This document shows positions 2,649 to 60,582 of a stretch of DNA of 64,000 nucleotides, piece after piece. The position numbers and the translations under genes are program-made. How positions within the stretch are numbered: the first letter of the stretch is position 1; every line of letters starts with the position of its first letter. The notes under the pieces are model-generated. The model was not told where the DNA came from, searched no databases, and saw only the letters and a list, made by a program, of their open reading frames with translations. The stretch covers positions 726,511 through 790,510 of the forward strand of contig CAYQOM010000002.1 in NCBI GenBank assembly GCA_964419145.1, written 5' to 3'. The stretch is from an uncultured Roseivirgaceae bacterium (GTDB lineage Bacteria; Bacteroidota; Bacteroidia; Cytophagales; Cyclobacteriaceae).

Positions 2649-2782
2649 GCTTGAAGTAACGATTAGGTTTTGGTGATCGTATACATCAAACCCAATAAAT
2701 ATGCCATGAATAAAATCAAAGCATATTCACAAGCTCAGGTAGTAAAGGCGATCAACTTGTACGCGTGTGAACAGGTCAGTGT

Positions 2783-3925: not shown

Positions 3926-3984
3926 CCTGCCGAGATAGCCTGATTTTGACTAACTCACAAAAGGTATGTGTTAACCGGTATTTA

Positions 3985-4386: not shown

Positions 4387-4389
4387 GCG

Positions 4390-43935: not shown

Positions 43936-44646
43936 TCACCCACTCACAAACTTCTCCCTGAACTGCAGGTTGAACATGCCATACAACAGGCAAAGCACGG
44001 TGAGTATCATAAGATAAAGCCTGTTCTTGTAAATAACCGTCAGCCAGATAAAGTCACTCATGCCCCGTGGTTCTGAGAAGGGGTTGAGAAAAACGTTGTA
44101 GGCGCTGTATTCCAGCAGCTCAAAAAAAATGAAAAATATGAACGACACGATCACCATCACGATAGCAGTCCCGTTGCCATTCTTGATCAAGGTAGATAGC
44201 ATAAAAGCCAGTGAGGATAGAAATGTGATGGGGAAGAGCACCTGACCGATCATGGGCAGAATGCTAAAGCGGTACAGCGTCAGGTCTGCCAGAACGCCCA
44301 GGATTACTAAAATGACAGCCGCGATTCCAATCGTCAAGAAAAACCGCACGAGCCATACTTTGTATCGGTAATTCGGAATACCAAAAATGGTTTCCAGCAT
44401 TTTGGAGTCATCGTCATTTTGAATACCATAAGCCATGGGGTAGAAGATGAGCAGCAATCCCGGGAAAACCAGGAAGCCGTATATCAGAGCTTCATTAAAG
44501 TCTGAATCACCTTCGAGGATTGTAATCAGGATGATGAATCCAAAGAATAAAAATGCTGCCACCACAAAGTAAACAAACTTGTTACCAAAAATTACTTTGA
44601 CGTTATAGGTTATCAACTTATATAACAGCAGGAGATAGCTCTTCAT
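43936..44646 (-). CDS. ABC-2-type transporter permease (6 TM), last gene of the supercluster
   Basis: 236 aa with six hydrophobic helices. Its start overlaps the stop of the RND::ABC fusion gene by 4 nt (ATGA). The family is inferred from topology and coupling to the NBD, not from a diagnostic motif. Confidence 0.6.
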   Translation of the reverse strand: MKSYLLLLYKLITYNVKVIFGNKFVYFVVAAFLFFGFIILITILEGDSDFNEALIYGFLVFPGLLLIFYPMAYGIQNDDDSKMLETIFGIPNYRYKVWLVRFFLTIGIAAVILVILGVLADLTLYRFSILPMIGQVLFPITFLSSLAFMLSTLIKNGNGTAIVMVIVSFIFFIFFELLEYSAYNVFLNPFSEPRGMSDFIWLTVIYKNRLYLMILTVLCLLYGMFNLQFREKFVSG

Positions 44647-47600
44647 ATTTTTTTCGTTTTACTTTTCATCAACCATAAGTAAGCATCCTCAAGATTTGCA
44701 CGCACGGAAACAGCATCGGCTCGTGGTATTTCATCAGATAAGCACTTCACCCGTATGCGATCACCTTCGCGCATATGATGAACGATCAGGTAGTTTTCTT
44801 TCTCCACTTCAAATTGTTCTGGAGTCAAATGGAACTCCCAAACTTTCTCATGCGCCAATTCGGCCATGGTTGTTGGGCTGCCAATATATTCGATATTGCC
44901 CGAGATGAGCACCGCCAGTTTGTTACAGCTGCTGGCAATGTCTTCAATGATGTGTGTAGAGAAGACCACGATCCGTTCACGACTAAGCTCCACAAGCAAA
45001 TTTCTGAATCGGATTCGTTCCAATGGATCAAGACCTGCAGTTGGCTCGTCCACCACCAATATCTTCGGTAGGTGAAGCAAGATTTGAGCAATGCCGATTC
45101 GTTGCTTCATACCACCAGAAAAGGAGCCGATCTTCTTATGCTGATGCTCATCCATGTGGACGGCTCTCAATACGTATTGCACACGCGCTTCGCGTTCCTT
45201 ATGATTGGATATCTTCCGTAAGATGGCCTGGTAATCCAGGAACTCATACGGTGTCATGTTTTCGTAGGTACCAAAAGCTTGAGGAAGATATCCGATGAGG
45301 CCCTGGAGTTCTTCTCTTCGTAACGTAGTGTCATGACCGTTAATCCAAATCTTACCGTAACTCTGATCCAGAATACCGCAGAGAATGCGCATCAGTGTTG
45401 TCTTGCCTGCGCCATTAGGTCCTAATAATCCGAACATGCCTTGTTCAATCGTGAGACTCGCACCTTTTAGTGCCTTGAACTCCGATTTCTTTGGTTTTAT
45501 AAAAGGAATGGCGAGCAATAGTGTATAGTATAGCCTTCTGATCTTCTTAAACCGCCCGGTGATCGCATTAACATCAACCGGTTTTTCCTTAAACCTTTCA
45601 GACACGCGCACGAAGTAAAGTCCCAGGAACCAAAGTAAGATCAGGATAATCCCGAATGCCTTGATCTGCACATCGCTGTATAAATAAACAGAGCTTACTA
45701 TTGGAAATCCCCAGTACAATAAAGTATAACTGATCCGCATCAACCTTTTTCTATAGGGAATCAATTGTTTGATGGTGTGGAAGATGGAGAGCGCCAGCAC
45801 ATGGAACAAGATCATAAAGACCAGTTGCCAGAATGCCTTATCCAAATGGAAATAAATAAAATAGACCAGGAAGGCGATCAAAGCACTTTGCCAGATCAAA
45901 TCTTGCAGAACCTTGCGCCATGTCACGGGTTCCTCACCGCGTGTTTCAAAGAGATTTTTGTTTCCTTTCCATTCCCTGATCCAACGCTTATCGCGACCGT
46001 ACACTTTTGTCAGGTTTTGGATCTTGATGTGCATGGCCTCACCGGGCGCAACCATTTTTGCATTCGCCTGGCGTAGGGAAGTCATAATGAAGTGTGTAGA
46101 ACCCGGAATTAGAATAATAGCGCCAATGAATGCGATCATCTGCAGGAGCAAGCCCTCCATGCGGAGTGATATAAAAACTCCTGCCGCAATCATGAGCGCG
46201 ATCTGGATGACCTTAATACTCGCTTTAAGATTCCTGAACCAGTGCAGCACACTTTCCAGCCCGGCACTCATTGTTGGGATATAGAAAAGAGTCAGTATCG
46301 TTGCAAAGGCAAGTCCGCCCATCACGGTAACGGCAAACGGCTGTCCAACGCTCACCACATACTCAGCTTCACCAAGGGCCAACGGCAGCATGGCAGTAAT
46401 CGTTGTGAGAGAGGTTATCATGATTGGCCGAACACGTGAAATGCCACTCATCATGAGCGCGCGATATTTCGAGTATCCTTCTCTTCGCAGGATGCGCGAA
46501 TAGTCGATGAGTATTATGCCATTGTTTACCACAACACCCAACAAAATCAGGAAACCGATCAAGGTGTTTGCACTTAACAATGAATTGCCGGTAAGCGTAA
46601 GACCCAAAAACGCGCCAATGGCGGCCAGGGGAATGGAGAACATGATCACAACGGGTAAGTACAACGACTCAAACACCGCAGCGAGGATCATGAAGATGAT
46701 AATGATGGCGGAAAAGATCAGAAAGTAGAATTCATCAAACAGTCCCTCATCATGAATCGCTTCAACTACGATGCCGGAAGGGATGTTGACACCAGCTACG
46801 ATCTGATCAATCTCTATTCGGGAGGCCTCGAGCAGGGATTCTGAATTCAAAACTTCATCAATAAAGGTATACGTGATTTGTATTCGTTTTTCCTGGTTTG
46901 AGCGGGTAATTGTGCTTTCACCGGATGAGTACAAGGCGTTACCAATTTCAGAAAATGAATGTGTAGCACCTGTTGTACTGCTCACTGGCATCTCACGCAA
47001 GTCGCGCATTTCCTTCGCGGTATTAACAACCTGATTTTGCGTGCGAATGGTTATTTCATAATCTTCGCCACCGCTGATAAAGTTGGAACCTGACTCGAAG
47101 GAAGGTTGAAAATCGTTAAGGGCCACCGCCACATTTTGTAACGTGATCTGATTCTCGCTCATTCGTTTTTGATCAAAGGCCAGGTGTGCCTCAGGACGCT
47201 CCGGACTCAGATTCATGGAATGCTGTTTGATGGACTGCAGACCACCAACCATCTTATTGATGTCGGTTGAGATAGACTGCATCAATTCAAAATCCTGACC
47301 TTTGATCACGATGCGCTCCGTAGGCGTTCCTATTCCCAACATCCGTTCAAAATCATTTTGGGCTGAACTACCGACACCACCTCCATCGCCACCACCATTT
47401 TGTACAGGAGGTCTATCGAGCGAGATGGTAACGTCATCAAAATCTTTGGAGATGCCTGTCAGTTGTTCGCGCACTTCGCCTACTGAAATAGTATCCAGGT
47501 CATTGAATCCGTCAACCAGTTTCACCGTTAGCACCGCATCCGTTTCGGAAACCTGACTGATCAATTCTTTAACCACTGGTATTCCCATCACCTTTTCTTC

Positions 47601-49352
47601 GATCTTCCTGATCCGCGCATCGCTCGATTTCAATGTGCTGCCTTGCGGCATGGTGACAAACATGTTCATCTCGGTAGATTCTACTTCAGAAGAACCCGCT
47701 ATACTGACCAAAAGACTAAGGCCGATTGAAACAAAAAACAAAACCAACCCAGCCATCACCGTAAACATGGGTCTGCGGAAGCAAGACTTCAGCAAAACCA
47801 TGTACATCTGGATAAGTCGCTGACGGATCGAGGCGTTCCGGATCAAAGGCGCTTTCTGTTGATCTTCTTTGCTTATGGCCGAGTCGGTCAACATGGGGAT
47901 GAGCACCAGGGCGACAACAAGTGAAACCAATAATGTGGCGATGATGGACACACCGATATGGGTGCCGATAAGCGTAACAAGAAAATTGGACGAGTAAATA
48001 AAAGGCAGAAACACAATTACGGTTGTGAGCGTACCCGCAATTACGGACCGCATGACCTCTTGTGTTCCCCGCACAACGGCTTCTTCGCGGTTCACTTTGT
48101 TCACCACATGACGATAAATGTTTTCGATGACCACCACACTGTTGTCTACCAACATGCCTATGGCCAGGGCCATTCCGATCAGCGTAAGGCTATTGATGGA
48201 GATGTCATATGCATAGAAGAAATTGAATGCAGCATAAACGGAGATCGGTATCGAGAGCGCTATGCTCAGGATGAATTTGATCCTGCGGAGAAATATCCAA
48301 AGAACAAATATGGCCAGCAGCCCACCCGTAATGGCCAGGTCTTTAATCGCATCAATATTGCGCGACATCATCTCGGCAGTATTATTTTGCACTACGATCT
48401 GTACATCCATGGGCTCCAGATCTTTGTTGATGACGTCAATAGCGTCAAGCGTTCTTTCCGATAGGGCAATCAGGTTAGCTTGCGGGTCTTTCGATATCCG
48501 GATCGAAACAGCATCTTTTCCATTAACCCGGCTCAGTGTAGTTTGCTCTTTTACTCCGAAGAATACATCGGCCACATCACTCAGCAGTAGCGGACCTTGC
48601 TCGGATACCACCAGGTTTTGAATGTTCTTAATGTCTTGTAATTCGGCTGTTACATGAACAAAAACTTTTTGTCCTTCCATGTGCACCTGCCCGGCAAAAG
48701 CACTCTTGTTCGCGTTCCGCGAGAGCACATTGCTGATCGTATTGGGTGTGATGCCGTTTGCCTCGCATATCGCATCATGCATGATGATCTCAACCGTCTT
48801 CTGCCGGCCGCCAAAAACTTCTACGCCACCCACACCGTCCACATCGTTTAATCGGTCAACTATGTATTGGTCAGCCATATTCCTGACGCGGTCAACTCCA
48901 CCGCTGCCCAGCACCTGAACATCCATAAATCCGTTGGTGAATTCTTCTGTATCGATCTTGATAATGTTCACCAGGAACTCAGGCGTAAGGCTCGACTTGA
49001 TCGCGCCAACCTTTTGCTCCAGTTTGAGGTAAGCGTATTTGATGTTAACGCCTTGCTGAAACGAAATGAAAATCATTCCCTGTTGGCTGTTGGCATTCGC
49101 GGTGATTTCAGCGACACCTTCAAGCGTACTGATGGCACTCTCCAGCGGCACGATAGCCTGACGTTCCATATACTTGGGGTCGACTTCCGTGGCTGATTGC
49201 ACCTGAACGATCAACACTGGCAATTCAACATTAGGGAACAGCTCAACGGCAAGCTTGGTATAGGAGATATAGCCCATGAAGGTCATACCGATGAACAACA
49301 TCGATACAAGCACTTTCCTCCGGATGATTGTCTTTAGCAAACTGTTACCCAT
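44643..49352 (-). CDS. RND efflux permease (AcrB-like, 12 TM) fused through extra TM helices to a complete ABC transporter ATP-binding domain
   Basis: A 1569-aa uninterrupted ORF.
- aa 1-~1032 are RND: the N-terminus is …IRRKVLVSMLFIGMTFMGYISYTKLAVELFPNVELP…, the TM4 motif is AIGMLVDNSVVVIENI and the TM10 motif is GVVVNNGIILIDY.
- aa ~1033-1106 are two extra TM helices.
- aa 1107-1122 read MHIKIQNLTKVYGRDK, the NBD strand 1.
- aa 1123-1291 are four more TM helices.
- aa 1292-1569 are the NBD core, with Walker A GPNGAGKT (45399-45422), Q-loop GYLPQ, signature FSGGMKQR, Walker B ILVVDEPTAGLD and H-loop FSTHI. Confidence 0.85.
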   Translation of the reverse strand: MGNSLLKTIIRRKVLVSMLFIGMTFMGYISYTKLAVELFPNVELPVLIVQVQSATEVDPKYMERQAIVPLESAISTLEGVAEITANANSQQGMIFISFQQGVNIKYAYLKLEQKVGAIKSSLTPEFLVNIIKIDTEEFTNGFMDVQVLGSGGVDRVRNMADQYIVDRLNDVDGVGGVEVFGGRQKTVEIIMHDAICEANGITPNTISNVLSRNANKSAFAGQVHMEGQKVFVHVTAELQDIKNIQNLVVSEQGPLLLSDVADVFFGVKEQTTLSRVNGKDAVSIRISKDPQANLIALSERTLDAIDVINKDLEPMDVQIVVQNNTAEMMSRNIDAIKDLAITGGLLAIFVLWIFLRRIKFILSIALSIPISVYAAFNFFYAYDISINSLTLIGMALAIGMLVDNSVVVIENIYRHVVNKVNREEAVVRGTQEVMRSVIAGTLTTVIVFLPFIYSSNFLVTLIGTHIGVSIIATLLVSLVVALVLIPMLTDSAISKEDQQKAPLIRNASIRQRLIQMYMVLLKSCFRRPMFTVMAGLVLFFVSIGLSLLVSIAGSSEVESTEMNMFVTMPQGSTLKSSDARIRKIEEKVMGIPVVKELISQVSETDAVLTVKLVDGFNDLDTISVGEVREQLTGISKDFDDVTISLDRPPVQNGGGDGGGVGSSAQNDFERMLGIGTPTERIVIKGQDFELMQSISTDINKMVGGLQSIKQHSMNLSPERPEAHLAFDQKRMSENQITLQNVAVALNDFQPSFESGSNFISGGEDYEITIRTQNQVVNTAKEMRDLREMPVSSTTGATHSFSEIGNALYSSGESTITRSNQEKRIQITYTFIDEVLNSESLLEASRIEIDQIVAGVNIPSGIVVEAIHDEGLFDEFYFLIFSAIIIIFMILAAVFESLYLPVVIMFSIPLAAIGAFLGLTLTGNSLLSANTLIGFLILLGVVVNNGIILIDYSRILRREGYSKYRALMMSGISRVRPIMITSLTTITAMLPLALGEAEYVVSVGQPFAVTVMGGLAFATILTLFYIPTMSAGLESVLHWFRNLKASIKVIQIALMIAAGVFISLRMEGLLLQMIAFIGAIILIPGSTHFIMTSLRQANAKMVAPGEAMHIKIQNLTKVYGRDKRWIREWKGNKNLFETRGEEPVTWRKVLQDLIWQSALIAFLVYFIYFHLDKAFWQLVFMILFHVLALSIFHTIKQLIPYRKRLMRISYTLLYWGFPIVSSVYLYSDVQIKAFGIILILLWFLGLYFVRVSERFKEKPVDVNAITGRFKKIRRLYYTLLLAIPFIKPKKSEFKALKGASLTIEQGMFGLLGPNGAGKTTLMRILCGILDQSYGKIWINGHDTTLRREELQGLIGYLPQAFGTYENMTPYEFLDYQAILRKISNHKEREARVQYVLRAVHMDEHQHKKIGSFSGGMKQRIGIAQILLHLPKILVVDEPTAGLDPLERIRFRNLLVELSRERIVVFSTHIIEDIASSCNKLAVLISGNIEYIGSPTTMAELAHEKVWEFHLTPEQFEVEKENYLIVHHMREGDRIRVKCLSDEIPRADAVSVRANLEDAYLWLMKSKTKKI

Positions 49353-52300
49353 GTGATACCGCTAACTTTTGTTTTTTCTTGCCACGGATCCGGCTGACAA
49401 TATTTTCTATGCTCTCGTAGTAGCAGGGGATGATCACGAGGGTCAAAAGTGTAGACGTAACCATGCCACCGATTACAGCAATAGCGATGGGTGCACGCAG
49501 TGCTGCGCTCTCTCCGAATCCCAACGTCAAGGGCAGCAGACCCAGAATGGTTGTCATGGTTGTCATCATGATCGGTCTGAGTCTGCGTTCTGCCGCGTCA
49601 AGAATGGCCTCGCGCAACGGCATGCCATTTTCCTTGTTCTGATTGATGCAATCCACAATCATAATGGAGTTGTTCACTGCAATGCCGCCCAACAAAATGA
49701 TGCCTATGAATCCCATCATGTTCAGCGGCATCCCCAGCACAAAGAAGGCGAGTATGGCACCTACTACTGCAAAGGGTATGGCCAGCAAAATGGTGAATGG
49801 ATGCAACAGCGATTCGAATTGAGAGGCAAGCACCATGTAAACCAATATGATGGATAGGATGAGTGCGAATGTTAAGTTCTGAACAGACTCCTGGCGTCTT
49901 ACTTCCTGGCCAGCTACTTTGATCTTGTATTGCGGGGGCACCGATAGTTTCGATAGCGAACTTTCAATTGATTTGACAACGCGATCATAGGGCTCGTCTT
50001 GATTCACACGGGCTCCGATCGTCACCGTTCGGGTTTGATCTTTTCTGTAAATGGAGTTGCTGGCATATTGAACATTTACCTGGGCGATCTCTGTTAAAGG
50101 AAATTCACGTTGGCCACTTTTGATCTTTATGTTTTGCAATCCTGCCAAAGAAACGCCAGGCACTTTTATTTTGATATCTTGTATTTCCCCACCGCGCTCA
50201 ATGGTTCCGGCTTGTTTGCCTTCCAGTTGGTCTTTAATCTGGGTAATGATTTCATCGATCGATAAATTGAAGATTCCGGCCCTGTATTTATCGATGTCAA
50301 CTTGAATCTGCGGCACGCCTTCCTCCAGGTTCGACACGGGATCAAACACGAGTTTGTTGGAAGTCATCGCGAGCATCACCGAATCGGAGAGGGGCTTTAG
50401 CTTTTCGAAATCTGCACCACTTACTTCAATTACCAGCGGCATTTGCTCGTCACCCATCACAGCGTAGAGTGCACTTTCATCATTGGAGAATGTAGCTTCC
50501 AGGCCAGGGATGGATTCAAAGTATGCTGAGAGTTTGGCCGTGACCGGGGCAATATCCAGTTCAATGTCTTCTTTGAATATCAGCTTGAGGTTAGCCTTGT
50601 TCTCATTGTATACGTTTTCATTCTTGATTCCCGATTGGCTTTGCTGAGGCCCGATGTGCGAATATATTTTGTCGATCTGTCCTTCAAACAATTGTTGAAG
50701 TTGCCCTTCGATCTGGCCAACCGTAGAAGAAGTTCGGGAAAGGGGAGTGCCGTTCGTCAACGTAATGTCCACAGAAATGGCACGTGTATCCGACTGGGGC
50801 ATGTATTCACTACCGATAATGGGAAGCAACAAAGCCGTACCCGCGATCATGACCAAGGATACCGTGATCCACGCTGTCTTGTGACCCAGCATTTTTTCGA
50901 GCAGTGACCGATACCATGGAAACCGTATATGTTTTTCATCAGCGAAAACTTTCTTCTCCTTGGCAAACACCTTGTCCTTTCTGAAAAATTGACTGAACAG
51001 CATCGGTATAACCAGGATGGCCACAAAGAGTGATGCGAACTGCGAGAACGCAACCGTCCACGCCTGATCTTTGAAGAGCTCACCGGAAGGGCCTTGCAGA
51101 TATACGATTGGCAAGAAAACAACAATACAGGTAAGCGTAGAAGCGGTGATCGCACCACTGACTTCACTTGTGCCTTCAATGGCAGCATCCATCACGCTCA
51201 ATCCTTCCTCTCGCTTTCGGAATATGTTCTCCACCACAACGATAGCGATGTCCACAAGCATACCTGCACTCAACGCCAATCCACCGAGTGTCATAACGTT
51301 CAGCGTGAGTCCATTGAAGTACATCAAATTGAATGTGGCAATGATGGAGATTGGGATCACCACACTGATGATGAGTGTAGAGCCAATTCTTCGCAGGAAA
51401 AGAAACAAGACAAGCACGGCAAAAAACACACCGAACAAACCGGATTCTTTCACCTCATCAATGGCGCCCTGGATAAACCTTCCCTGGTTTTGGATGATCA
51501 CAAACTCGTAACCGGGAACGGAAGTTTTTAACTTCTCCAGTGATGCCATCAGTTCATTGACCGCGTTAACGGTATTGTAATTGGTCTCTTTATAAATGGA
51601 CATTCCAATGCTTCGCTGCTGATTCACCCGAACAATACTGGTTGGCTCCTTATCTAAAGTCTTGATGGTGGCCACCTCCCGAAGTAAAACCGGAACCTGA
51701 TCGGATAAAGCAGGGGTGTTGTTGGTTGTAGTCGTAGTGGTTGTTGAAGGGAGTGCAGGTGAAGTGGTTGTTGCATTTTGACGACTGGTGTAGCCCACTA
51801 CTAACTCTTGCAAGTCTTCGGGCTTTGAAACAATGCCCAGGCCTTTGATCACATACTTTCTGCCCAACTCTTCAATAAACCCACCGGACACGCTTCGGTT
51901 ATAGTTTTGAATTTTAGTAACAAGGTCATTTACGGTCAGACCGTGAGCGGCCAGCAGGGCAGGATCGGTCTCCACCACCACTTCTTTCTCTAGCTCGCCT
52001 GACAAACGCACCTCAGCAATTCCCGGCAACTTGACCAACTCGTTCCTGAAATTATTCTCAGCCACACGTCTTAATGCATCGGTGTCATTAGACGCTGGAT
52101 TATATATCCCCAATATCATGACCGGAGCTGCATTCGGATCGAATTGCGAAATCACAAACTCCTCGATCTCATCGTTCAATGAAAATGCCGACAGTGATTT
52201 TTGAAGATCAAGGAATGCCTCGTCCATGTCCTTGCTCCAATCGTACTGTACGGTAACGCGGCCATAACCCGTTTGGCTCACCGAGCTTACTTCAACAGCA

Positions 52301-52530
52301 CCACTTTGCCGGATGGCAATGGATTCTATATTTTCAATAAACTGCTTCTCAACTTCCGAAGGTGGTTTGATACCCGCCTTGAGTTCAACGAATAACGTGG
52401 GATTCTTCATTTCCGGAACCAACTCAATGCCGAGTTTGTCGAATGAGATGAAACCCAATAGAATGACGGCCAAAACAAGCATCAGGATTGATACCGGGTA
52501 AGTGACCGCCAATGAGACTATCTTTTTCAC
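49345..52530 (-). CDS. RND efflux permease (AcrB/HAE-type), first of a tandem pair
   Basis: 1061 aa. The N-terminus is MKKIVSLAVTYPVSILMLVLAVILLGFISFDKLGIELVPE. The TM4 motif is SAGMLVDIAIVVVENI and the TM10 motif is GGIAVNNSIMIVDC. The two-fold repeat architecture is typical of the family. Its stop overlaps the RND::ABC start by 8 nt. Confidence 0.9.
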   Translation of the reverse strand: MKKIVSLAVTYPVSILMLVLAVILLGFISFDKLGIELVPEMKNPTLFVELKAGIKPPSEVEKQFIENIESIAIRQSGAVEVSSVSQTGYGRVTVQYDWSKDMDEAFLDLQKSLSAFSLNDEIEEFVISQFDPNAAPVMILGIYNPASNDTDALRRVAENNFRNELVKLPGIAEVRLSGELEKEVVVETDPALLAAHGLTVNDLVTKIQNYNRSVSGGFIEELGRKYVIKGLGIVSKPEDLQELVVGYTSRQNATTTSPALPSTTTTTTTNNTPALSDQVPVLLREVATIKTLDKEPTSIVRVNQQRSIGMSIYKETNYNTVNAVNELMASLEKLKTSVPGYEFVIIQNQGRFIQGAIDEVKESGLFGVFFAVLVLFLFLRRIGSTLIISVVIPISIIATFNLMYFNGLTLNVMTLGGLALSAGMLVDIAIVVVENIFRKREEGLSVMDAAIEGTSEVSGAITASTLTCIVVFLPIVYLQGPSGELFKDQAWTVAFSQFASLFVAILVIPMLFSQFFRKDKVFAKEKKVFADEKHIRFPWYRSLLEKMLGHKTAWITVSLVMIAGTALLLPIIGSEYMPQSDTRAISVDITLTNGTPLSRTSSTVGQIEGQLQQLFEGQIDKIYSHIGPQQSQSGIKNENVYNENKANLKLIFKEDIELDIAPVTAKLSAYFESIPGLEATFSNDESALYAVMGDEQMPLVIEVSGADFEKLKPLSDSVMLAMTSNKLVFDPVSNLEEGVPQIQVDIDKYRAGIFNLSIDEIITQIKDQLEGKQAGTIERGGEIQDIKIKVPGVSLAGLQNIKIKSGQREFPLTEIAQVNVQYASNSIYRKDQTRTVTIGARVNQDEPYDRVVKSIESSLSKLSVPPQYKIKVAGQEVRRQESVQNLTFALILSIILVYMVLASQFESLLHPFTILLAIPFAVVGAILAFFVLGMPLNMMGFIGIILLGGIAVNNSIMIVDCINQNKENGMPLREAILDAAERRLRPIMMTTMTTILGLLPLTLGFGESAALRAPIAIAVIGGMVTSTLLTLVIIPCYYESIENIVSRIRGKKKQKLAVSHG

Positions 52531-52548
52531 AAGAGACTTGTTTAGAAA

Positions 52549-53607
52549 TTATTGAATAACGCTGACTTTCGATTTGTTTCTCAGGGTTTCAAAACCTGCG
52601 ACCACGAGCCGGTCATTGACCTTCAGCCCGTTGGTAACTTCGATTACATCGGCATTCTCCAGTCCGGTAGTTATTTTCTTTTCAGTTGCTATACCATTTT
52701 CTACGGTAAACACCACCTTACCATCTTGACGGGAGATAATGGTTTGTTTTGGGATAACGATGGTATTGTCACGTTTCTCAGATAGAATGAATGCTTTGAT
52801 AAACATGCCAGGTCGCAACGATCGTTTTGCATTGTTTATCTCCAGCACACTTTGAAACGTTCGGGTATCCGCATTAATGGCTGGGGAGATCTGGCTGATC
52901 TTCCCATAAATGGTATCGTTCGCTACATTATAGTTAGCAATTTGAACGGTCTGGTCCATCGTTACTTCAGGCAAATGTTTCTCAGGGAGCTTTACATCCA
53001 TCAACAGTTTATCGTATTGCATGATTTTTAAAAGCATCTGCCCTTGATCGATTTTTACGCCATTCGTGTGATACGGTAATTCTACAATCACTCCATCAAA
53101 GGGAGCGCGTATGGTCATCTTAGCCTGTTGTATCTCCGCATTCTCAAACGCATACTTGGCATTGACGTATGATATCGCAGCATTTTTTAATTCGGTTTGT
53201 GTAACACCGCCTTTGTCATACAAGGACTGTTGCTTCTTTAGATTATTGTCGGCAAGCTCGAGGTTGAGTCTCTTACCTTCCGTCTGAAGGTTGTTTTCAA
53301 ATTCCTTGTCTTCCAGTCGGATCAACACTTGTCCGGCTTTAACTGCATCGCCCAACGCGAAAGGTTTTCCGGTTGATGGATTACGTTGCAGTTGGTAAAC
53401 ACCACCAATCTCGGATTTCATGGCACCTTCCTTAAAGGCATACACGGTGCCTGTAGTTTCAATGAATCGGGAGATGCTCTGTGGCTTGATGCTTATCACC
53501 GACACGGGGATCTTGATCTCCGTTTTAATGTTTGCGTCTTCCGAGTTGCAGCTTGCCAGTGCAATCAATACCAGCAGGGGAAGGATTTCTTTAATATGCT
53601 TTTTCAT
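52549..53607 (-). CDS. Efflux RND periplasmic adaptor (membrane fusion protein), lipoprotein
   Basis: 352 aa with a lipobox (LIALASC). It has a lipoyl/hairpin pattern (…AGQVLIRLEDKEFENNL…coiled coil…TIRAPFDGVIVEL…) and a C-terminal beta-barrel. Confidence 0.85.
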   Translation of the reverse strand: MKKHIKEILPLLVLIALASCNSEDANIKTEIKIPVSVISIKPQSISRFIETTGTVYAFKEGAMKSEIGGVYQLQRNPSTGKPFALGDAVKAGQVLIRLEDKEFENNLQTEGKRLNLELADNNLKKQQSLYDKGGVTQTELKNAAISYVNAKYAFENAEIQQAKMTIRAPFDGVIVELPYHTNGVKIDQGQMLLKIMQYDKLLMDVKLPEKHLPEVTMDQTVQIANYNVANDTIYGKISQISPAINADTRTFQSVLEINNAKRSLRPGMFIKAFILSEKRDNTIVIPKQTIISRQDGKVVFTVENGIATEKKITTGLENADVIEVTNGLKVNDRLVVAGFETLRNKSKVSVIQ

Positions 53608-53636
53608 TCTGTATGATGTTGGGTTCAGTTGGATGA

Positions 53637-55148
53637 TTAATTTTTAGGGATAAGCACAGGCTCTTGTGTTTCAAAATCGTAAAGGGATTGAATCTTTAGG
53701 TTGAGCAATTCAATTTTATAGTTAATCAACGCATCGGCCAGTGCGCTCTTCTTTTCCGAAAGCTGGCTTTGAAATCTATTGAGATCGATACTGGTCAGGT
53801 CGCCATTCTTGTATCGCTCAAGATTCAAGTCGTAGGTCAACGTGGCGTTCTTTACATTTTGTTGAGCGATGGTTATTTGATTTTCCAGATTTTGCAGGTT
53901 CCGGTAAATCTTCCTTATACTGATGATGATGTTATTTTTTTCTACATCCAGGTCAACTTTCCTTATCTCGAGTGAGGTGTTGGTTGCGTCCATTCGTGCC
54001 CTGTTCTCACCCCAGTCGAAGATGGGTATGCTAAAGGAAATGGCTACTCGCGGATTAACGGCAGGCGACTCATACACCATAGGCGCGCGCTCGTTATCAC
54101 CAAAAACAGCTAATGACAAGCTCACCGAACCTTTAAATTCATTCAACGCCTTCGTTCGAATTAATTCAAACTGCGATCGCTCAATGTCTATCGAACGCTG
54201 TCGCAATTCCATTCTGTTGTCCAGTCCAAACTGAAGTGCTTGGTTTAAGTCCACTTTCCGGGTAATAAAATCAATGTTCACCTCAACGGCTACTTGTTCA
54301 GTCAAGTCCATGCCGAGTAAAAGTTTGAAGTCATCGGCAGCATTATCGAGCAATACCTGATTGGTTTCCATGGTCGACTTGGATGTGGCCAGGTTGAGTT
54401 CGGCCTGATAAAGTTCTTCTTGCGCCAGCAGGTCAGCGTCTACTTTGTTCTTCGTGATTTCGTAACTGATTCTCTGATTCTCATATTCATCTTTCGAAAT
54501 CTGGAGCGTGTTCTGTCGCTGGTAAAAAGTATAAAACGACTGCGTAACGCTTTGTTCCAAGCTTAATAATTGCAATGAATTGCTGATGGTGGCATTCTCC
54601 AGGTTCAACTCCAGTTCCTTTAACTGAATCTTTGTTCGGTTGTATGTAAAGATGGGCTGGTCTAATTGAAGATATAAGTTGTTGCTGTACGTCTTGGTTC
54701 GGACATCCTGAAACTCGGAATAGTTATCTCTGTACCCAAACCGGTTGATTAACGATATGCGGCCATCGGTTGCCAAAATGGGCTGGCTCACTGAAAAATT
54801 GGCGAATGAATTATAGTCTCTGTTTGTGTTCCATAGCGAAAACAAATCGTTGAACATCCGGCTCTGGTTGAAATCGAACGGGGTAACGTCTAACGCGAAC
54901 TTTGACTTTAAAGCCGCGCGTTGAGCATCCAGGCTGCGCTGACTACCATACAGATTCAACATTGATTTTTTTATGTTTAGACTGCTCTGCTGTGCAATCT
55001 TAATCGCTTCGTTCAGCGTGAGTTTACGCTGCGCGTTCGCGCTCGTCCAGCTAAGTACGATGCATGCCAGCAAGAGAAATCCAGTTGTTAAACGCACGAA
55101 TCGTCTATTGTTCCATTTCATTGTTTTCCTTAAACCCATGTGATTCAA
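53637..55148 (-). CDS. TolC-family outer membrane efflux protein
   Basis: 503 aa with a signal peptide (…VLSWTSANAQ). The start LTLNEAIKIAQQSSLNIKKS is typical of the family. The internal duplication of long helical segments is consistent with an OEP/TolC fold. Confidence 0.8.
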   Translation of the reverse strand: MNHMGLRKTMKWNNRRFVRLTTGFLLLACIVLSWTSANAQRKLTLNEAIKIAQQSSLNIKKSMLNLYGSQRSLDAQRAALKSKFALDVTPFDFNQSRMFNDLFSLWNTNRDYNSFANFSVSQPILATDGRISLINRFGYRDNYSEFQDVRTKTYSNNLYLQLDQPIFTYNRTKIQLKELELNLENATISNSLQLLSLEQSVTQSFYTFYQRQNTLQISKDEYENQRISYEITKNKVDADLLAQEELYQAELNLATSKSTMETNQVLLDNAADDFKLLLGMDLTEQVAVEVNIDFITRKVDLNQALQFGLDNRMELRQRSIDIERSQFELIRTKALNEFKGSVSLSLAVFGDNERAPMVYESPAVNPRVAISFSIPIFDWGENRARMDATNTSLEIRKVDLDVEKNNIIISIRKIYRNLQNLENQITIAQQNVKNATLTYDLNLERYKNGDLTSIDLNRFQSQLSEKKSALADALINYKIELLNLKIQSLYDFETQEPVLIPKN

Positions 55149-55198
55149 ATTTTGAAGTTGGAGTTTGTCTTTTATTTAATGTTTTATCTATTATCTGC

Positions 55199-58100
55199 TC
55201 ATTGCTTAACCCACTTCACCGCATCCGCATACACAGTCCAGAGCTCGCACTCATCCGTCAACGAAACACTGCCACCGGTTTTATTGAAATAATACGAACC
55301 CAGATAATTCCAGCCCGGCTCTGCATTTGTGATATTGTACTTGAGGTTGTCCGTTCCATCGGCATTTTGAATGATATAGTTGTAATCGAATTGCTTGCCT
55401 TCAGCACTGCGACCCGTCCAGGTGTTTTGGTTTTTGCCGCGCATGTATACATACAAATCGTAGAAGCCAGCCTCTTTCAATTCAGCAGTCCACGTGGCGA
55501 CCTTTTCACCATTTCCCGACCTTGTGAAATGTGCCGAGCGGATAATACTACCAAAAAAATCAGATCCCGTGGTGGCCAGCCAACTCGAGTATGAGCTATC
55601 CCACTCGCCATAGTACTTCTGCTCGGTGGCTTTTCGGCTATCCATGTAGGCTTTCAACACCGTGGGCTTGATAGGACTGAAGCTGCTGAAACCGGAATCC
55701 TCATTGTCAACGATTACTTCATATTGAATCGGGACTTCTTCTTTGTCAACAACCCGTTCACCATCAAATAGAATTCCGCCCGCGCGGCTAGACAAAGTTC
55801 CCATAGATATGTTGATTACAGAGGGAATATTTCTTGAAATGATAGTATTGATAGTGAGTGAATTCGGTTTTTCATCGAGCAAAAAGCCAAGAAGCTTCGT
55901 CTCGCCTTGCTTGATTACCGAAAGTTTCCCCGGAGCTTCTTCTTCAACGTCCTCATTCACCTTGTTGTAATACTCATCATCATCCGTGTTTTGCTTGCTG
56001 TTGAACTTTACTTCCAGTACACCATCACTATCACCCGAATTTTTCACTTTCACCAGCACTTGATACCGTTTTCGGTCAACGTCTGTTACCTCATATTTCT
56101 GAATATCCAGAATTTCGAAAGCTGGTTGAGAAGTTTCTGAATACACTTCGCGGATAACCGGGTCAATATCAATTTGAAATCGCGAAAGCATCGCTTTCCG
56201 GAAATCCTGATAATCGCTTAGTTGATGTTGATGGTTGTTTACCCAATCGTATAAGAAAGTTTTGAATTGGGTTTCACCCATGGTGTTGCCCAGGTAGGAG
56301 AAGAGGTACTGGCTTTTCAGCGTTACCGCTTTGTTGATTTTGCTGAACTCTGCCTCCGTCAGGATTTTCGTCATTGAAGTAGTGTGCATCAGGTTGTTGC
56401 ATTCCTCCGTGAACGAGATTCCGTTCATGGACCGGGTATAGTCGTTCTGAACTTGTTTGTCATTTCTAAGGTAAGTGGCCATACTCCGGTTTAGCAGCGG
56501 CCAATCCCGACTCACTACACCTGAATTGAAATCATAATAAATAGGAAAGAGAGAATAGTCAGCATTGTCGAAATCCTGACCTTCATTCACCCATCTTTCT
56601 CCAATTTGTTTGGTGAAAACTTTCCGTACCAAATCGTTAAAGACATTGGCTTGTTTCTGTTTGTCTGTGAGCACTTGATTTGTTTTGGCAGCTTGCGTAT
56701 TCATGTCCAGGAGTTGCCGCCTGAAATCGAACTGCCGTATTTCACCACCTTCTTCCGGCCAGAAAACTGTTTCGGGTTGGATAAATGCCATGTGACTCTC
56801 GTATATTTTTCTGTAAGCCGTAAGCATCATGGGCACTTCAACAAACTGCATCCTTTTGAAAGGATACTTGAGTTGTTGCGCGTCTTCATATTCAGTGGCT
56901 ACATCGGTAATCAGGTAGCTGAGTGTATCGCCCAGTTGATTGAGTTGCTTCACGAAGAAATCATTCTTTGGATAATGAAATACTGAATAGGTGATGCTAT
57001 CCACTACGATCTCTTTTTTTGCATAAGCACCAATAACAAGTGAGATGTGCGGCAGCGGATATTCAGGCTTGAAGTGGTAGGTATCTCCCACGAGCACAAC
57101 TTCTCCTTGTGAAATAGGCGTTTGGCCGGCAGGAGCTTTAACCATCAATTCAAACGTGATGAAGGATTGTCTCTCTTTAGCTGCCGATTCTTTATTATAA
57201 CCAACTTCTGTGTCTGGATACCAAAGCACATCTTTGGTTAGCAATACATAATCATCCTCCAGAAAACCATACTTCTTGGGTAAGGAAAACATAAAGTGGT
57301 CATTCGCAGTTTCATAGCGTTTTTGATCAACTTCAAGATGCGCGACTGATTCCAATACCGAACCATGGTATTGAATCTGAACTTTTGTTTCAGCATCCGG
57401 TTCAAGGGCAACACCCTGGCTTATGGAAATAATTTGTAAGTCTCTTGTAAACTCGGTGGGTTTATCGTTCAGGAGTACGGCATCAACAGTAAGACCGGGA
57501 TTCAATGTGAAATAGATCGTATCAAGCCGCTCACTCGTATTATTTCTTACCCGCATGTTCGAATGGCTAACAATCTCATTGCCGACCCACTCCAATTCGA
57601 TGGTATGTGAGTTTATCTCAGCGTTTGGCTTATTTATCCACCGGCCGTTAACTGCTATCATCTCTTGCCGCATATCCATGGAGCTTTGCCGCATGTTCCA
57701 GAGATTGAACATGATAAAAGAGGATAGTAGAAGCAGCGCGGCACCCACTACAGCCGTAGCCCGATGTGAGGTCTTGTGGCCGGCCAATCGGTCCAGTAGA
57801 AATGCCGTGATGAAAAGAAACGCGATGCCTGTAATCAAATAGAATGTGCGTTGCCACAGCGCAAATTCAATATCGATGAAGCCCGTCATCTCGGAAGCCA
57901 GCATGGAAAGCCGAAACGAAGTGAAATCCAGGATGTTTGAAAACTTATCGAAATAATAAATCAACTGAACGCCAGCTAAACCAATAAGCAACACGATGGA
58001 GATCGGTTGATTTCGGATAACGGTTACCAACAGAAATGCTATACCTGTTGTAAATACAATACTGGGAACGCTCGTGAGCAACGGATAAATAAGGAAAGCC

Positions 58101-59418: not shown

Positions 59419-59544
59419 GAAGTGGTGATTTCATATTGTTCGAATTGAGAATTGTATGGATGATTGAAAGCGCTCACAAAAGACTACGTTACAGAGAAGA
59501 AGATTTTGCTGATGCTTTGTTACAAATGCCCTTGATATTTAAAG

Positions 59545-60581: not shown

Positions 60582-60582
60582 A

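What the first reader, a model, noticed from the sequence alone, without database searches (positions are those of the whole stretch)
45480..46034. ABC nucleotide-binding domain interrupted by a ~170-aa four-helix membrane insertion between strand beta-1 and Walker A
In ordinary NBDs only a few residues separate the first strand (…L.K.Y…, which carries the A-loop aromatic) from the strand that leads into Walker A. In the standalone paralogue the sequence is continuous: IEISGLSKIYPNGHAAIKNINLQIGSGMFGLLGPNGAGKS. In the fused copy, IKIQNLTKVYGRDK is followed by ~170 residues containing four hydrophobic helices (LIWQSALIAFLVYFIYFHL, FWQLVFMILFHVLALSIFHTI, ISYTLLYWGFPIVSSVYLY, IKAFGIILILLWFLGLYFV). 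Only then does the sequence resume with FKALKGASLTIEQGMFGLLGPNGAGKT. The ATPase would thus be stapled to the membrane at its beta-1/beta-2 hairpin. I have not seen this arrangement described. It could transmit conformational changes directly between the NBD and the RND transmembrane bundle.
Basis: seen in the sequence. Interest (0 to 1): 0.7.

Follow-up and report, generated by a model that had tools for sequence, protein, structure and literature searches.

The report
RND pump fused to split ATPase
A bacterial efflux-pump protein carries an ATP-driven motor domain at its tail, and that motor's first strand is separated from the rest of its fold by about 170 residues, most of them forming four predicted membrane-spanning helices; the arrangement is conserved in over a hundred related proteins and I found no description of it in the literature I could search.

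Summary
ORF 44643-49352 (-), 1569 aa, is a full RND permease followed by two extra hydrophobic helices, a true ABC beta-1 strand (aa 1107-1120, with the A-loop Tyr1118), a 169-aa insertion, and the rest of a catalytically complete NBD from aa 1290. The insertion has a conserved amphipathic helix, four predicted TM helices and a return helix. A beta-1 scoring matrix built only from ordinary NBDs picks aa 1108 as the single hit in the protein (25.0 bits; next best 4.9; no non-NBD position among ~565,000 reached 25). Splicing out the insertion restores alignment to NBD model position 1. AF2 (pLDDT 85) predicts the strand and helices. 132 relatives keep the layout. All 16 full-length representative hits to this region are RND fusions. 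A second fusion lineage (L003) has a ~42-aa soluble insertion at the same site; 91 unfused relatives have none. I read it as a membrane clamp that docks an ABC-2 exporter onto a two-RND tripartite pump. That function is inferred. I rate it a new variant of known kinds.

The parts
46257..49352 (-). RND permease part of the fusion protein (aa 1-1032), full length
   Evidence: Pfam ACR_tran 6-1028 matches model positions 2-1016 of 1021, E 2.7e-151. AcrB D407, R971 and T978 are kept; D408 is N and K940 is N.
46161..46223 (-). Extra hydrophobic helix 'TM13' (aa 1044-1064)
   Evidence: KD > 1.6. AF2 helix 12-32 of the model. Estimated dG 2.7, above the 1.7-2.1 of this protein's RND TM1 and TM2.
46077..46151 (-). 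Extra hydrophobic helix 'TM14' (aa 1068-1092)
   Evidence: KD > 1.6. AF2 helix 36-65. The 3-residue turn before it has 0.3 K+R.
45993..46034 (-). NBD strand beta-1 with the A-loop aromatic residue (aa 1107-1120, MHIKIQNLTKVYGR; Y1118)
   Evidence: Matrix score 25.0 bits, the only hit in the protein. Splice test gains 10-12 bits and reaches profile position 1. AF2 strand 1109-1120. K1116 and Y1118 invariant.
45486..45992 (-). The whole insertion between beta-1 and beta-2 (aa 1121-1289, 169 aa)
   Evidence: Beta-1 to Walker A is 203 residues, against 32-37 in 44 ordinary NBDs. No Pfam family. No profile similarity to ABC-2 TMDs.
45942..45992 (-). Conserved cytoplasmic amphipathic helix right after the A-loop (aa 1121-1137, DKRWIREWKGNKN...; family motif R..R[FW].REWK.G)
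   Evidence: AF2 helix 1123-1137. W1128 invariant and R1126 nearly invariant. Motif present in about 100 homologues and in Acidobacteria-type members.
45846..45920 (-). Inserted helix 'TM15' (aa 1145-1169)
   Evidence: KD 1.78. AF2 helix. Nearly invariant W1154, F1161, Y1164 and F1165. dG 1.9.
45762..45836 (-). Inserted helix 'TM16' (aa 1173-1197)
   Evidence: KD 2.15. AF2 helix. dG 0.4, family median -0.2.
45672..45749 (-). Inserted helix 'TM17' (aa 1202-1227), the weakest of the four
   Evidence: AF2 helix. Its N-terminal end carries the K/R cluster (2.9 K+R). dG 5.2, family median 3.8, so it is marginal and probably needs neighbouring helices to insert.
45585..45662 (-). Inserted helix 'TM18' (aa 1231-1256)
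   Evidence: KD 2.34. AF2 helix. dG -1.1.
45486..45584 (-). Basic return linker with a conserved helix (aa 1257-1289; ITGRFKKIRR, G1266 invariant)
   Evidence: AF2 helix 1269-1281. 9.1 K+R on average. G1266 and P1283 invariant; F1268, R1272 and G1286 nearly invariant.
44643..45485 (-). Rest of the NBD from beta-2 on, plus the C-terminal domain (aa 1290-1569 and stop). Motifs: Walker A 1311-1318, Q-loop Q1358, signature 1411-1418, Walker B/E1436, H1467.
   Evidence: Pfam ABC_tran 1295-1439. GldA and DrrA models. All motif residues invariant in 68 sequences. Foldseek top hits are 4yer, LptB, NosF and ABCA NBDs.
43936..44646 (-). Conserved 236-aa membrane protein, a divergent ABC-2 (type V) permease and the probable TMD partner of the fused NBD. 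Its start overlaps the fusion's stop by 4 nt (ATGA).
   Evidence: Found downstream of the fusion in L001, L002 and L012. hhalign against the TMD of large ABC-2 permeases: 89.9%, E 1.7e-6, 215 columns; three controls < 1%. Those TMDs match Pfam ABC2_membrane_2/3/4/5, several above threshold. No direct Pfam or NCBIfam hit.
49345..52530 (-). RND1, a second full-length RND permease; overlaps the fusion gene's start by 8 nt
   Evidence: Pfam ACR_tran, E 5.5e-206. Orthologues at 48-51% identity sit just upstream of the fusion in L001, L002 and L012.
52549..53607 (-). Periplasmic adaptor (MFP)
   Evidence: Pfam HlyD_D23 and HlyD_3. Syntenic orthologues.
53637..55148 (-). Outer-membrane factor
   Evidence: Pfam OEP, two stretches. 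Syntenic orthologues.
55199..58531 (-). 1110-aa ABC-2 permease with an M1-peptidase-like region and a Golvesin_C domain; partner of the standalone NBD
   Evidence: Pfam ABC2_membrane_4 (weak), Peptidase_M1 (weak) and Golvesin_C. Orthologues in L005 and L011.
58528..59418 (-). Standalone paralogous NBD (296 aa) with an uninterrupted beta-1/beta-2
   Evidence: The GldA model aligns 1-221 to profile 1-219. About 41-43% identical to the fused NBDs.

Best explanation
Shown in silico. This is a true, conserved domain insertion in an ABC ATPase that is itself fused to the C-terminus of an RND permease. The chain leaves RND TM12 in the cytoplasm and makes a two-helix membrane hairpin. It then forms NBD strand beta-1, which ends in the adenine-stacking Tyr1118. 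Next it runs through a conserved basic amphipathic helix and crosses the membrane four times. It returns through a basic linker and helix and completes the NBD from beta-2 on. Both hairpin sets have an even number of helices, so both NBD pieces stay cytoplasmic. The NBD has every catalytic motif.

Inferred. Its transport partner is the ABC-2 permease encoded by the overlapping next gene. The six accessory helices act as a membrane clamp and docking module. They hold the ABC-2 engine flat against the membrane beside the RND transmembrane domain. The ABC-2 unit would move a substrate out of the cytoplasm or inner leaflet. The RND1/RND2-adaptor-OMF pump would then expel it across the outer membrane. 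The insertion emerges next to the A-loop, so it may also let membrane or RND state tune ATP binding.

My confidence differs by layer: about 0.9 for the anatomy, about 0.6 for pairing with the 236-aa permease, and about 0.35-0.4 for the clamp-and-relay function.
For: Anatomy:
- Searches give the domain layout.
- Searches show beta-1 homology and the chance test.
- Searches show conservation in 132 members.
- One search is the AF2 model (pLDDT 85). DSSP assigns 'E' only to H-bonded ladders, and every other strand in this monomer model lies in the NBD, so beta-1 must pair with the NBD sheet in the model.
- One search shows the positive-inside pattern.
- Searches show invariant Walker A, Q-loop, signature, Walker B Glu and H-switch.

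Own TMD partner:
- Searches show conserved synteny.
- One search shows the 4-nt ATGA overlap.
- link the 236-aa protein to ABC-2 TMDs.

Link between the ABC-2 module and the RND pump:
- Searches show one co-oriented gene string (NBD, large permease, OMF, MFP, RND1, RND2-NBD, permease). The upstream five genes are syntenic in L005 and L011, and the stretch from OMF (cut at the locus start) to the small permease is syntenic in L001, L002 and L012.
- Searches show an independent fusion architecture in L003, again next to an ABC-2 permease, another RND and an OMF.

Insertion tied to fusion:
- all 16 full-length representative hits (1550-1590 aa) to aa 1033-1292 (extra helices, beta-1 and insertion) are fusions.
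- 91 unfused relatives have normal spacing, and only RND-linked ones have expanded loops.

Conserved aromatic residues within the inserted helices argue for specific packing, not a generic anchor.
Against: - No coordinates were returned, so beta-1/beta-2 pairing and the position of the helices relative to the NBD are deduced, not measured.
- TM17 is only marginally hydrophobic, and no dedicated TM predictor was available.
- The 236-aa protein has no direct Pfam or NCBIfam hit. Its HMM finds no ordinary permease. The link is one profile-profile match at 90% probability. Its AF2 model failed (pLDDT 51.8).
- An NBD dimer does not fit a three-fold RND trimer in any simple way. Stoichiometry is unknown.
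- Nothing here identifies a substrate or shows that the two modules share one.
Confidence: 0.55

Rival explanations
1. ATP-coupled RND. The NBD acts on the RND itself. ATP-driven NBD movements would be passed through TM13-18 into the RND2 transmembrane bundle, so that ATP replaces, supplements or gates the proton-driven cycle. This is.
For: - The NBD is covalently tied to RND TM12 and held at the membrane by six helices.
- The AcrB proton-relay set is incomplete in all eight RND1 and RND2 proteins examined: D408 is N (I in the window's RND1) and K940 is N.
- Expanded beta-1/beta-2 loops are seen only in RND-fused NBDs.
Against: - A dedicated ABC-2 permease is encoded right after the fusion, and in L003 as well. 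That gives the NBD a conventional job.
- The same VDN TM4 motif occurs in the unfused RND1 and in RND1 orthologues of L005 and L011, so it is not specific to the fused protein.
- D407, R971 and T978 are kept, so a proton path is not excluded.
- NBDs work as dimers and RNDs as trimers.
Confidence: 0.17
2. Regulatory insertion. The segment mainly controls the ATPase, in the way CFTR's regulatory insertion modulates NBD1. The conserved R..R[FW].REWK helix would sit by the adenine pocket, and the membrane helices would sense lipid, substrate or partner state.
For: - The insertion begins two residues after the invariant A-loop Tyr1118. The helix that follows is the best conserved part of the insertion.
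- A soluble insertion occupies the same site in L003-type fusions.
- CFTR has a 31-residue insertion (405-435) that ends 22 residues before its Walker A (PMC9160490).
Against: - The short insertions share no sequence similarity with the long one. The first tblastn matched only NBD residues 261-528 of L003.
- Regulation would not need four conserved membrane helices.
- No phosphorylation or ligand motif was identified.
- This reading is compatible with the best explanation and overlaps it.
Confidence: 0.15
3. Heterodimeric ABC-2 transporter. The fused NBD pairs with the standalone paralogous NBD (58528-59418), and the 236-aa permease pairs with the TMD of the 1110-aa permease. One ABC-2 heterodimer would then be tethered to one RND2 subunit. 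The insertion would be the anchor that positions the single fused NBD.
For: - Both NBDs and both permeases lie in one gene string.
- The two permease TMDs are remote homologues.
- The two NBDs are each other's closest type, at 41-43% identity.
- The upstream pair is syntenic with OMF-MFP-RND1 in L005 and L011.
- One fused NBD per complex would ease the dimer/trimer mismatch.
Against: - Both NBDs keep consensus catalytic motifs, so there is no asymmetric-site signature.
- L003 shows a fused NBD with one large permease and no standalone NBD within the 8 kb seen.
- No locus other than the window covers both ends of the string, so co-occurrence is shown only once.
Confidence: 0.1
4. No true interruption. 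The upstream beta-1-like peptide would be a relic or a chance match, the NBD would work N-terminally truncated, or the ORF would be an assembly or annotation artefact.
For: - Continuous profile alignments start at model position 15/16.
- Many database entries are fragments.
Against: - The matrix hit is unique at 25 bits, with no false background hit.
- K1116 and Y1118 are invariant, and beta-1 is better conserved than the helices around it.
- Spacing is fixed in 132 proteins.
- Intact 1567-1589-aa ORFs occur in three independent genomes, one of them a cultured strain.
- The short calls on long contigs are frameshift splits.
Confidence: 0.03

Closest known systems
CFTR NBD1 regulatory insertion (RI, residues 405-435)
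   Same: It is an extra segment in the N-terminal beta region of an ABC NBD, just before the strand that leads into Walker A. The RI ends 22 residues before G458 (PMC9160490). The insertion here ends 19 residues before G1311. NBD1 still folds with the RI deleted (PMC9160490, PMC7350234), which shows the site tolerates insertions. That it follows the A-loop aromatic W401 is from my own knowledge.
   Different: The RI is 31-32 residues long, soluble, disordered and phospho-regulated, and it occurs in a eukaryotic channel. This insertion is 169 residues with four predicted membrane helices and conserved flanking helices. There is no sequence relationship. My beta-1 matrix did not recognise CFTR's divergent beta-1, so the N-terminal boundary equivalence was not tested here.
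L003-type RND-NBD fusions (uncultured bacterium MAG; P0314-P0317)
   Same: A full RND permease is fused to a DrrA/GldA-type NBD. Beta-1 is separated from beta-2 at the same site. The neighbours are another RND, an ABC-2 permease and an OMF.
   Different: The insertion is only ~40-55 residues and has no hydrophobic helices. There is no TM13/14 pair. The partner permease is the large (922-aa) type, not a 236-aa one.
ABC-2 / type V exporters with DrrA-, GldA- or NosF-type ATPases
   Same: The NBD's best models are GldA and DrrA. The best structural matches include TM_1403 (4yer), NosF and ABCA NBDs. The downstream permease is a remote ABC-2 homologue.
   Different: In those systems the NBD is a free soluble subunit, or is fused only to its own TMD, and beta-1 and beta-2 are contiguous (32-37 residues to Walker A).
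MacAB-TolC (tripartite ABC efflux pump)
   Same: An ATPase-driven inner-membrane component works with a periplasmic adaptor and an outer-membrane factor. The NBD is fused to membrane helices (PMC8277102).
   Different: In MacB the NBD is N-terminal to its own four-helix TMD, which carries a large periplasmic domain. It has no RND component, and its NBD fold is not interrupted. Here the short turns between the inserted helices leave no room for a periplasmic domain.
Two-RND operons such as MdtABC (heteromeric RND pumps)
   Same: Two RND genes sit in tandem behind one adaptor gene. The fusion's RND part weakly matches the MdtC and MdtB/MuxB models. That Mdt pumps are heterotrimers is from my own knowledge.
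   Different: The scores are far below those models' cut-offs (251 against 1774 bits). Neither Mdt protein carries an ATPase. Whether RND1 and RND2 co-assemble here is untested.

Membership tests
ABC ATPase (nucleotide-binding domain, PF00005) | Walker A (GxxGxGK[ST]) | tested here: met
   GPNGAGKT at 1311-1318. G/K/T invariant in 68 sequences.
ABC ATPase (nucleotide-binding domain, PF00005) | ABC signature (LSGGQ-like), Q-loop, Walker B with catalytic Glu, H-switch | tested here: met
   FSGGMKQR at 1411-1418, Q1358, ILVVDE(1436)PTAGLD and H1467, all invariant. Pfam ABC_tran 101.4 bits against a cut-off of 25.
ABC ATPase (nucleotide-binding domain, PF00005) | A-loop aromatic residue at the end of strand beta-1, contiguous with beta-2 | tested here: inconclusive
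   The aromatic residue (Y1118, invariant) and beta-1 are present. They are 169 residues away from beta-2, so the element is present but not contiguous. Pairing in 3D is deduced from the DSSP assignment only.
ABC ATPase (nucleotide-binding domain, PF00005) | RecA-like plus helical subdomain fold | tested here: met
   Foldseek of the AF2 model: 4yer E 1e-20, 1vpl TM-score 0.81 (normalised to target), LptB, NosF, MacB NBD.
ABC ATPase (nucleotide-binding domain, PF00005) | ATP hydrolysis and nucleotide-dependent dimerisation | not testable with these tools
   Needs biochemistry.
RND permease (AcrB/AcrD/AcrF, PF00873) | Full-length match with 12 TM helices and two large periplasmic loops | tested here: met
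   ACR_tran 505.9 bits, residues 6-1028 on model positions 2-1016 of 1021. NCBIfam RND_permease_2 gives 436 bits but is below its 1250-bit cut-off.
RND permease (AcrB/AcrD/AcrF, PF00873) | AcrB-type proton relay (D407, D408, K940, R971, T978) | tested here: not met
   D407, R971 and T978 are kept. D408 is N and K940 is N in the fusion and in RND1 across four genomes. This argues against the narrow AcrB-type (HAE-1) mechanism, not against RND membership.
ABC-2 (type V) permease, for the 236-aa downstream protein | Significant match to an ABC2_membrane family model | tested here: not met
   No Pfam or NCBIfam hit, even at E <= 5.
ABC-2 (type V) permease, for the 236-aa downstream protein | Profile-level homology to proven ABC-2 TMDs, six helices, cytoplasmic motif between TM2 and TM3 | tested here: met
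   hhalign 89.9%, E 1.7e-6, over 215 columns against TMDs that match ABC2_membrane_2/3/4/5. Controls < 1%. The low-confidence AF2 secondary structure is consistent with this.
ABC-2 (type V) permease, for the 236-aa downstream protein | Type V fold | tested here: inconclusive
   AF2 pLDDT 51.8, because the alignment members are 83-89% identical. The model was not used for fold search.
CFTR-like regulatory insertion | Short, disordered, phospho-regulated soluble segment between beta-1 and beta-2 | tested here: not met
   The site is the same by position (PMC9160490). Here the segment is 169 aa, confidently helical and hydrophobic.

The most novel reading that the evidence does not exclude
The fusion is the core of a hard-wired hybrid machine in which an ATP-driven ABC-2 module and a proton-driven (or ATP-gated) RND pump are mechanically coupled in one complex. 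The four-helix insertion and the TM13/14 pair would form the interface that passes the nucleotide state of the NBD, through the A-loop strand, into the RND2 and/or ABC-2 transmembrane domains. That would make it the first known transporter to combine two primary/secondary energy-coupling systems in a single polypeptide, and the first ABC ATPase with a membrane domain built into its fold.
Probability: 0.2. Interest if true: 0.9.

Novelty: new variant of a known kind. Interest (0 to 1): 0.66.

Why it matters
ABC ATPases are among the best-studied protein folds. Their first two strands are normally a tight hairpin that carries the adenine-stacking residue. A conserved family with a four-helix membrane domain spliced into that hairpin shows the fold can be assembled from two pieces separated by membrane insertion. 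It also marks the site as an evolutionary hot spot: CFTR has its regulatory insertion there, and L003-type fusions have a soluble one.

The host protein joins an RND pump and an ABC engine in one chain. Textbooks treat these as alternative ways to energise tripartite efflux. If the two modules cooperate, this would be a natural, physically linked version of the proposed two-step efflux route, in which an inner-membrane transporter hands substrate to an RND pump. It could also show how ATP and proton motive force are combined.

The system occurs in a cultured strain (Labilibacter sediminis CG51, L012) and in many Bacteroidota and some Acidobacteria MAGs, so it can be tested by experiment.

Tried and rejected
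1. AF2 of the 236-aa partner, with Foldseek planned afterwards. The alignment held only sequences 83-89% identical to the query, pLDDT was 51.8, and I discarded the model.
2. A direct HMM search with the 236-aa family against 2,107 ORFs from 80 loci found only its own orthologues. Profile-profile comparison was needed.
It gave only three full-coverage loci, so a proper taxonomic census was not possible.
4. The tools return no model coordinates, so I could not measure beta-1/beta-2 hydrogen bonds or helix packing.
5. hhalign of the insertion against three ABC-2 TMD profiles and the 236-aa family scored <= 1.1%. I rejected the idea that the six extra helices are themselves a split ABC-2 TMD.
6. 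Pfam on the insertion alone found nothing.
7. The beta-1 matrix did not detect CFTR's beta-1, best score -1.1. The CFTR comparison therefore rests on position and on the literature.
8. I considered that the 785-931-aa family members on long contigs might be natural 'half-RND' fusions. I rejected this because L082 shows adjacent overlapping fragments (652 + 931 aa), which is typical of assembly frameshifts.
9. Five literature searches found no description of an RND-ABC fusion or of a membrane insertion in an NBD. The library lacks most subscription journals, so this is absence of evidence only.


Full report
**What is at the coordinates**

The finding lies in one long ORF, window 44643-49352 on the minus strand, 1569 aa. 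Window 45480-46034 is aa 1107-1291. Pfam finds a full-length RND permease domain (ACR_tran, residues 6-1028, E 2.7e-151) and an ABC ATPase domain (ABC_tran, 1295-1439). NCBIfam full-length NBD models (GldA, DrrA) align only from their position 15/16, starting at aa 1291. On the standalone paralogue (58528-59418) the same models align from position 1.

The layout after RND TM12 (which ends at about aa 1028) is as follows:
- two hydrophobic helices at 1044-1064 and 1068-1092;
- the peptide MHIKIQNLTKVYGR at 1107-1120;
- a basic helix at 1123-1137;
- four long helices at 1145-1169, 1173-1197, 1202-1227 and 1231-1256;
- a basic linker with a helix at 1269-1281;
- FKALKGASLTIEQGMFGLLGPNGAGKT from 1292.

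**Is the upstream peptide really strand beta-1?**

Four independent tests say yes.

1. *Chance test.* I built a position-specific scoring matrix from the beta-1 columns of 44 ordinary NBDs taken from unrelated loci. None of them came from this family. Scanning the whole 1569-aa protein gave one hit, aa 1108 HIKIQNLTKVYG at 25.0 bits. The runner-up scored 4.9, and the paralogue's true beta-1 scored 24.8. Ten of 565,347 background positions reached 25 bits. On inspection all ten were real NBD beta-1 strands that my filter had missed, each followed by Walker A at the normal distance. No non-NBD position reached the observed score.
2. *Splice test.* I removed the insertion in silico. The GldA-model score rose from 170.9 bits (profile 16-224) to 180.5-183.3 bits (profile 1-224). 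Scrambled, decoy and native upstream sequences gave 171.2-171.8 bits and did not reach the start of the profile. The DrrA, lantibiotic-protection, RbbA and PQQ-system NBD models behaved the same way.
3. *Conservation.* In 132 family members the best matrix hit lies 197-236 residues before Walker A, with a mode of 213. K1116 and the A-loop Tyr1118 are invariant. Beta-1 has a mean column identity of 0.76, higher than any of the surrounding helices at 0.41-0.62.
4. *Structure prediction.* AF2 with a 68-sequence alignment (mean pLDDT 85.1) predicts a 12-residue strand at 1109-1120. DSSP calls a residue 'E' only if it sits in a hydrogen-bonded ladder. Every other strand of this monomer model lies in the NBD. 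Beta-1 must therefore be paired with the NBD sheet in the model. This is a deduction, because no coordinates were returned.

Ordinary NBDs have 32-37 residues from the start of beta-1 to Walker A. The window protein has 203.

**Are the helices in the membrane?**

- Three of the four inserted helices and both upstream helices exceed Kyte-Doolittle 1.6 over 19 residues.
- Across 68 sequences, K+R averages 3.1, 7.3 and 9.1 in the three predicted cytoplasmic segments. It averages 0.3, 0.5 and 0.2 in the three 3-residue predicted periplasmic turns. The basic cluster KQLIPYRKRLMR sits at the cytoplasmic TM16/TM17 junction.
- An approximate insertion free energy, using the Hessa scale as I recall it, gives 0.4 and -1.1 kcal/mol for TM16 and TM18. 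TM13-15 score 1.9-2.7, within or slightly above the range of this protein's own RND TM1 and TM2 (1.7 and 2.1). TM17 scores 5.2. Soluble control segments score 12-20.
- TM17 is therefore marginal. The count of four also rests on parity, since both NBD pieces must be cytoplasmic, on the very short turns, and on AF2. No dedicated TM predictor was available.

**Is it a family feature?**

Yes. More than 100 database proteins cover at least 99% of aa 1033-1569 at about 50% identity. The conserved motif is I.I.[IV]..L.K[IV]Y.R..R[FW].REWK.G. Source names include Chryseosolibacter, Bacteroidales, Prolixibacteraceae, Draconibacterium, Odoribacter and one Spirochaetales MAG.

Intact ORFs of 1567-1589 aa occur in two Bacteroidales MAGs and in the cultured Labilibacter sediminis CG51. 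A later search added members from an Acidobacteria MAG (P0354) and relatives, with a distance of 203-207 and the GRF.REW motif.

I searched aa 1033-1292 (the extra-helix pair, beta-1 and the insertion) against 1.84 billion representatives and found only 73 hits. All 16 full-length ones (1550-1590 aa) place the match at about 1025-1295, so they are RND fusions. The rest are fragments. P0263 (526 aa, starting at TM13) is the only ambiguous case.

Members of 785-931 aa on long contigs are frameshift-split genes. L082 shows 652 + 931 aa pieces.

The closest matches to the window's own proteins are Cytophagales (Chryseosolibacter, Fulvivirgaceae, Cyclobacteriaceae).

The fusion's stop codon overlaps the start of a 236-aa multi-helix protein (43936-44646) in an ATGA overlap. 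This protein is present downstream of the fusion in L001, L002 and L012. It has no Pfam or NCBIfam hit, and its HMM finds no ordinary permease.

A profile-profile comparison does link it to known permeases. It aligns over its whole length (215 columns, 89.9% probability, E 1.7e-6) with the N-terminal membrane domain of the ~1100-1220-aa permeases that follow the closest unfused NBDs. Three controls scored below 1%. Those domains match Pfam ABC2_membrane_2/3/4/5, several above threshold. The fused NBD thus has a probable ABC-2 (type V) permease of its own. AF2 of this protein failed (pLDDT 51.8).

The window's gene string on the minus strand is:

| Gene | Coordinates |
|---|---|
| GntR-family regulator | 60231-60581 |
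| DUF2807-like protein | 59545-60234 |
| standalone NBD | 58528-59418 |
| 1110-aa ABC-2 permease with M1-like and Golvesin_C regions | 55199-58531 |
| outer-membrane factor (OMF) | 53637-55148 |
| periplasmic adaptor (MFP) | 52549-53607 |
| RND1 | 49345-52530 |
| RND2-NBD fusion | 44643-49352 |
| 236-aa permease | 43936-44646 |

Orthologues of the first five transport genes occur in the same order in L005 and L011. The stretch from the OMF (cut at the locus start) through MFP, RND1 and the fusion to the small permease occurs in the same order in L001, L002 and L012. Only the window spans the whole string.

**A second fusion architecture**

L003 (an uncultured-bacterium MAG) encodes a 1437-aa protein with ACR_tran at 4-1054 and ABC_tran at 1174-1307. 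Its beta-1 is at 1104 (19.6 bits) and Walker A at 1179. The insertion is about 42 aa, soluble, and at the same site. Its neighbours are another RND, a 922-aa ABC-2 permease (hhalign 96.5%) and an OMF. Relatives P0314-P0317 have distances of 73-88.

Among the proteins returned by that search, 91 unfused NBDs have spacing of 33 +/- 4. In this admittedly small and biased sample, an expanded beta-1/beta-2 loop is seen only when the NBD is fused to an RND.

**How it most likely works**

*Shown in silico.* The NBD keeps every catalytic motif, all invariant: Walker A K1317, Q1358, signature 1411-1418, Walker B E1436 and H1467. Its fold matches free ABC-2-type ATPases. Both halves of the NBD are placed in the cytoplasm by even-numbered helix sets.

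*Inferred.* The NBD powers the 236-aa ABC-2 permease. The six accessory helices clamp it to the membrane next to RND2. The composite machine would couple ATP-driven extraction across or out of the inner membrane to RND/adaptor/OMF-driven expulsion. The insertion starts two residues after the adenine-stacking Tyr, and its first helix is the most conserved part, so a regulatory link to ATP binding is plausible.

*Rivals.*
- The NBD acts directly on the RND. This is attractive because AcrB D408 and K940 are replaced by N in all eight RND proteins checked. It is weakened because the unfused RND1 shares the pattern, as do RND1 orthologues in L005 and L011 for the TM4 motif, and because a dedicated permease exists.
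- The insertion is mainly regulatory.
- The fused NBD forms a heterodimer with the standalone NBD and the large permease.

*Unresolved.* How an NBD dimer fits an RND trimer is not settled.

**Comparison with what is known**

The nearest precedent for the site is CFTR's regulatory insertion, residues 405-435 (PMC9160490, PMC7350234). I confirmed the CFTR sequence and numbering against the PDB. The RI ends 22 residues before Walker A G458, compared with 19 here. It is short, soluble and disordered, and my matrix did not recognise CFTR's beta-1.

MacB is an ABC component of a tripartite pump, but its NBD is not interrupted and it has no RND part (PMC8277102). Tandem-RND operons such as Mdt resemble the RND1/RND2 pair only loosely.

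I found no paper describing an RND-ABC fusion or a membrane domain inside an NBD. The library is incomplete.

**Verdict**

The mechanistic idea is untested and is made less direct by the newly recognised permease partner.

This is a new variant built from known parts. It should surprise specialists in ABC transporters and efflux pumps, and it can be tested in a cultured organism. Interest 0.66.

Noticed in passing
window 49345-52530 and 44643-49352 (also L001, L002, L012): Both RND proteins lack part of the AcrB proton-relay set in all four genomes. D408 is N (I in the window's RND1) and K940 is N, while D407, R971 and T978 are kept. RND1 orthologues in L005 and L011 share the VDN motif. I do not know whether this is typical of this Bacteroidota RND subfamily or tied to the ABC association.
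   Followed up: partly
L003:4521-8831 (+), with neighbours L003:11-1711, 1728-4493 and 9256-10920: A second RND-NBD fusion architecture (1437 aa). It has a ~42-aa soluble insertion at the same beta-1/beta-2 site and sits next to another RND, a 922-aa ABC-2 permease and an OMF. A few relatives exist (P0314-P0317).
   Followed up: partly
window 43936-61371 (-): One long co-oriented gene string holds two ABC-2 modules and a two-RND tripartite pump, headed by a short GntR-family regulator (60231-60581) and a DUF2807-like protein (59545-60234). Adjacent genes overlap by 4 nt (44643-44646) and 8 nt (49345-49352), which suggests translational coupling.
   Followed up: partly
window 55199-58531 (-): The 1110-aa partner of the standalone NBD joins an ABC-2-like membrane domain to a weak M1-peptidase-like region and a Golvesin_C domain. 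Permeases of this size (~1100-1220 aa) follow most of the closest unfused NBD relatives in other phyla. Their function is unknown.
   Followed up: partly
window 51703-51774 (-), RND1 aa 253-276: A Thr-rich low-complexity stretch (ATTTSPALPSTTTTTTTNNTPALS) sits inside the periplasmic part of RND1. The RND1 orthologues are 20-38 aa shorter overall (1023-1041 aa); I did not check whether they lack this stretch.
   Followed up: no
L082:494-7132: On a 613-kb contig both RND genes are split into overlapping fragments (463 + 176 aa, and 652 + 931 aa). The likely cause is frameshift errors in the assembly. This explains the many 'short' family members found on long contigs.
   Followed up: yes
P0263 (526 aa, from the representative search): This protein starts at the TM13-equivalent helix and carries beta-1, the insertion and the NBD without an RND part. 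It could be a rare unfused form or a mis-called fragment. Its contig context was not examined.
   Followed up: no
window 60583-61371 (-): A 262-aa multi-helix membrane protein with no Pfam match lies just upstream of the GntR-family regulator. Its relation to the cluster is unknown.
   Followed up: no
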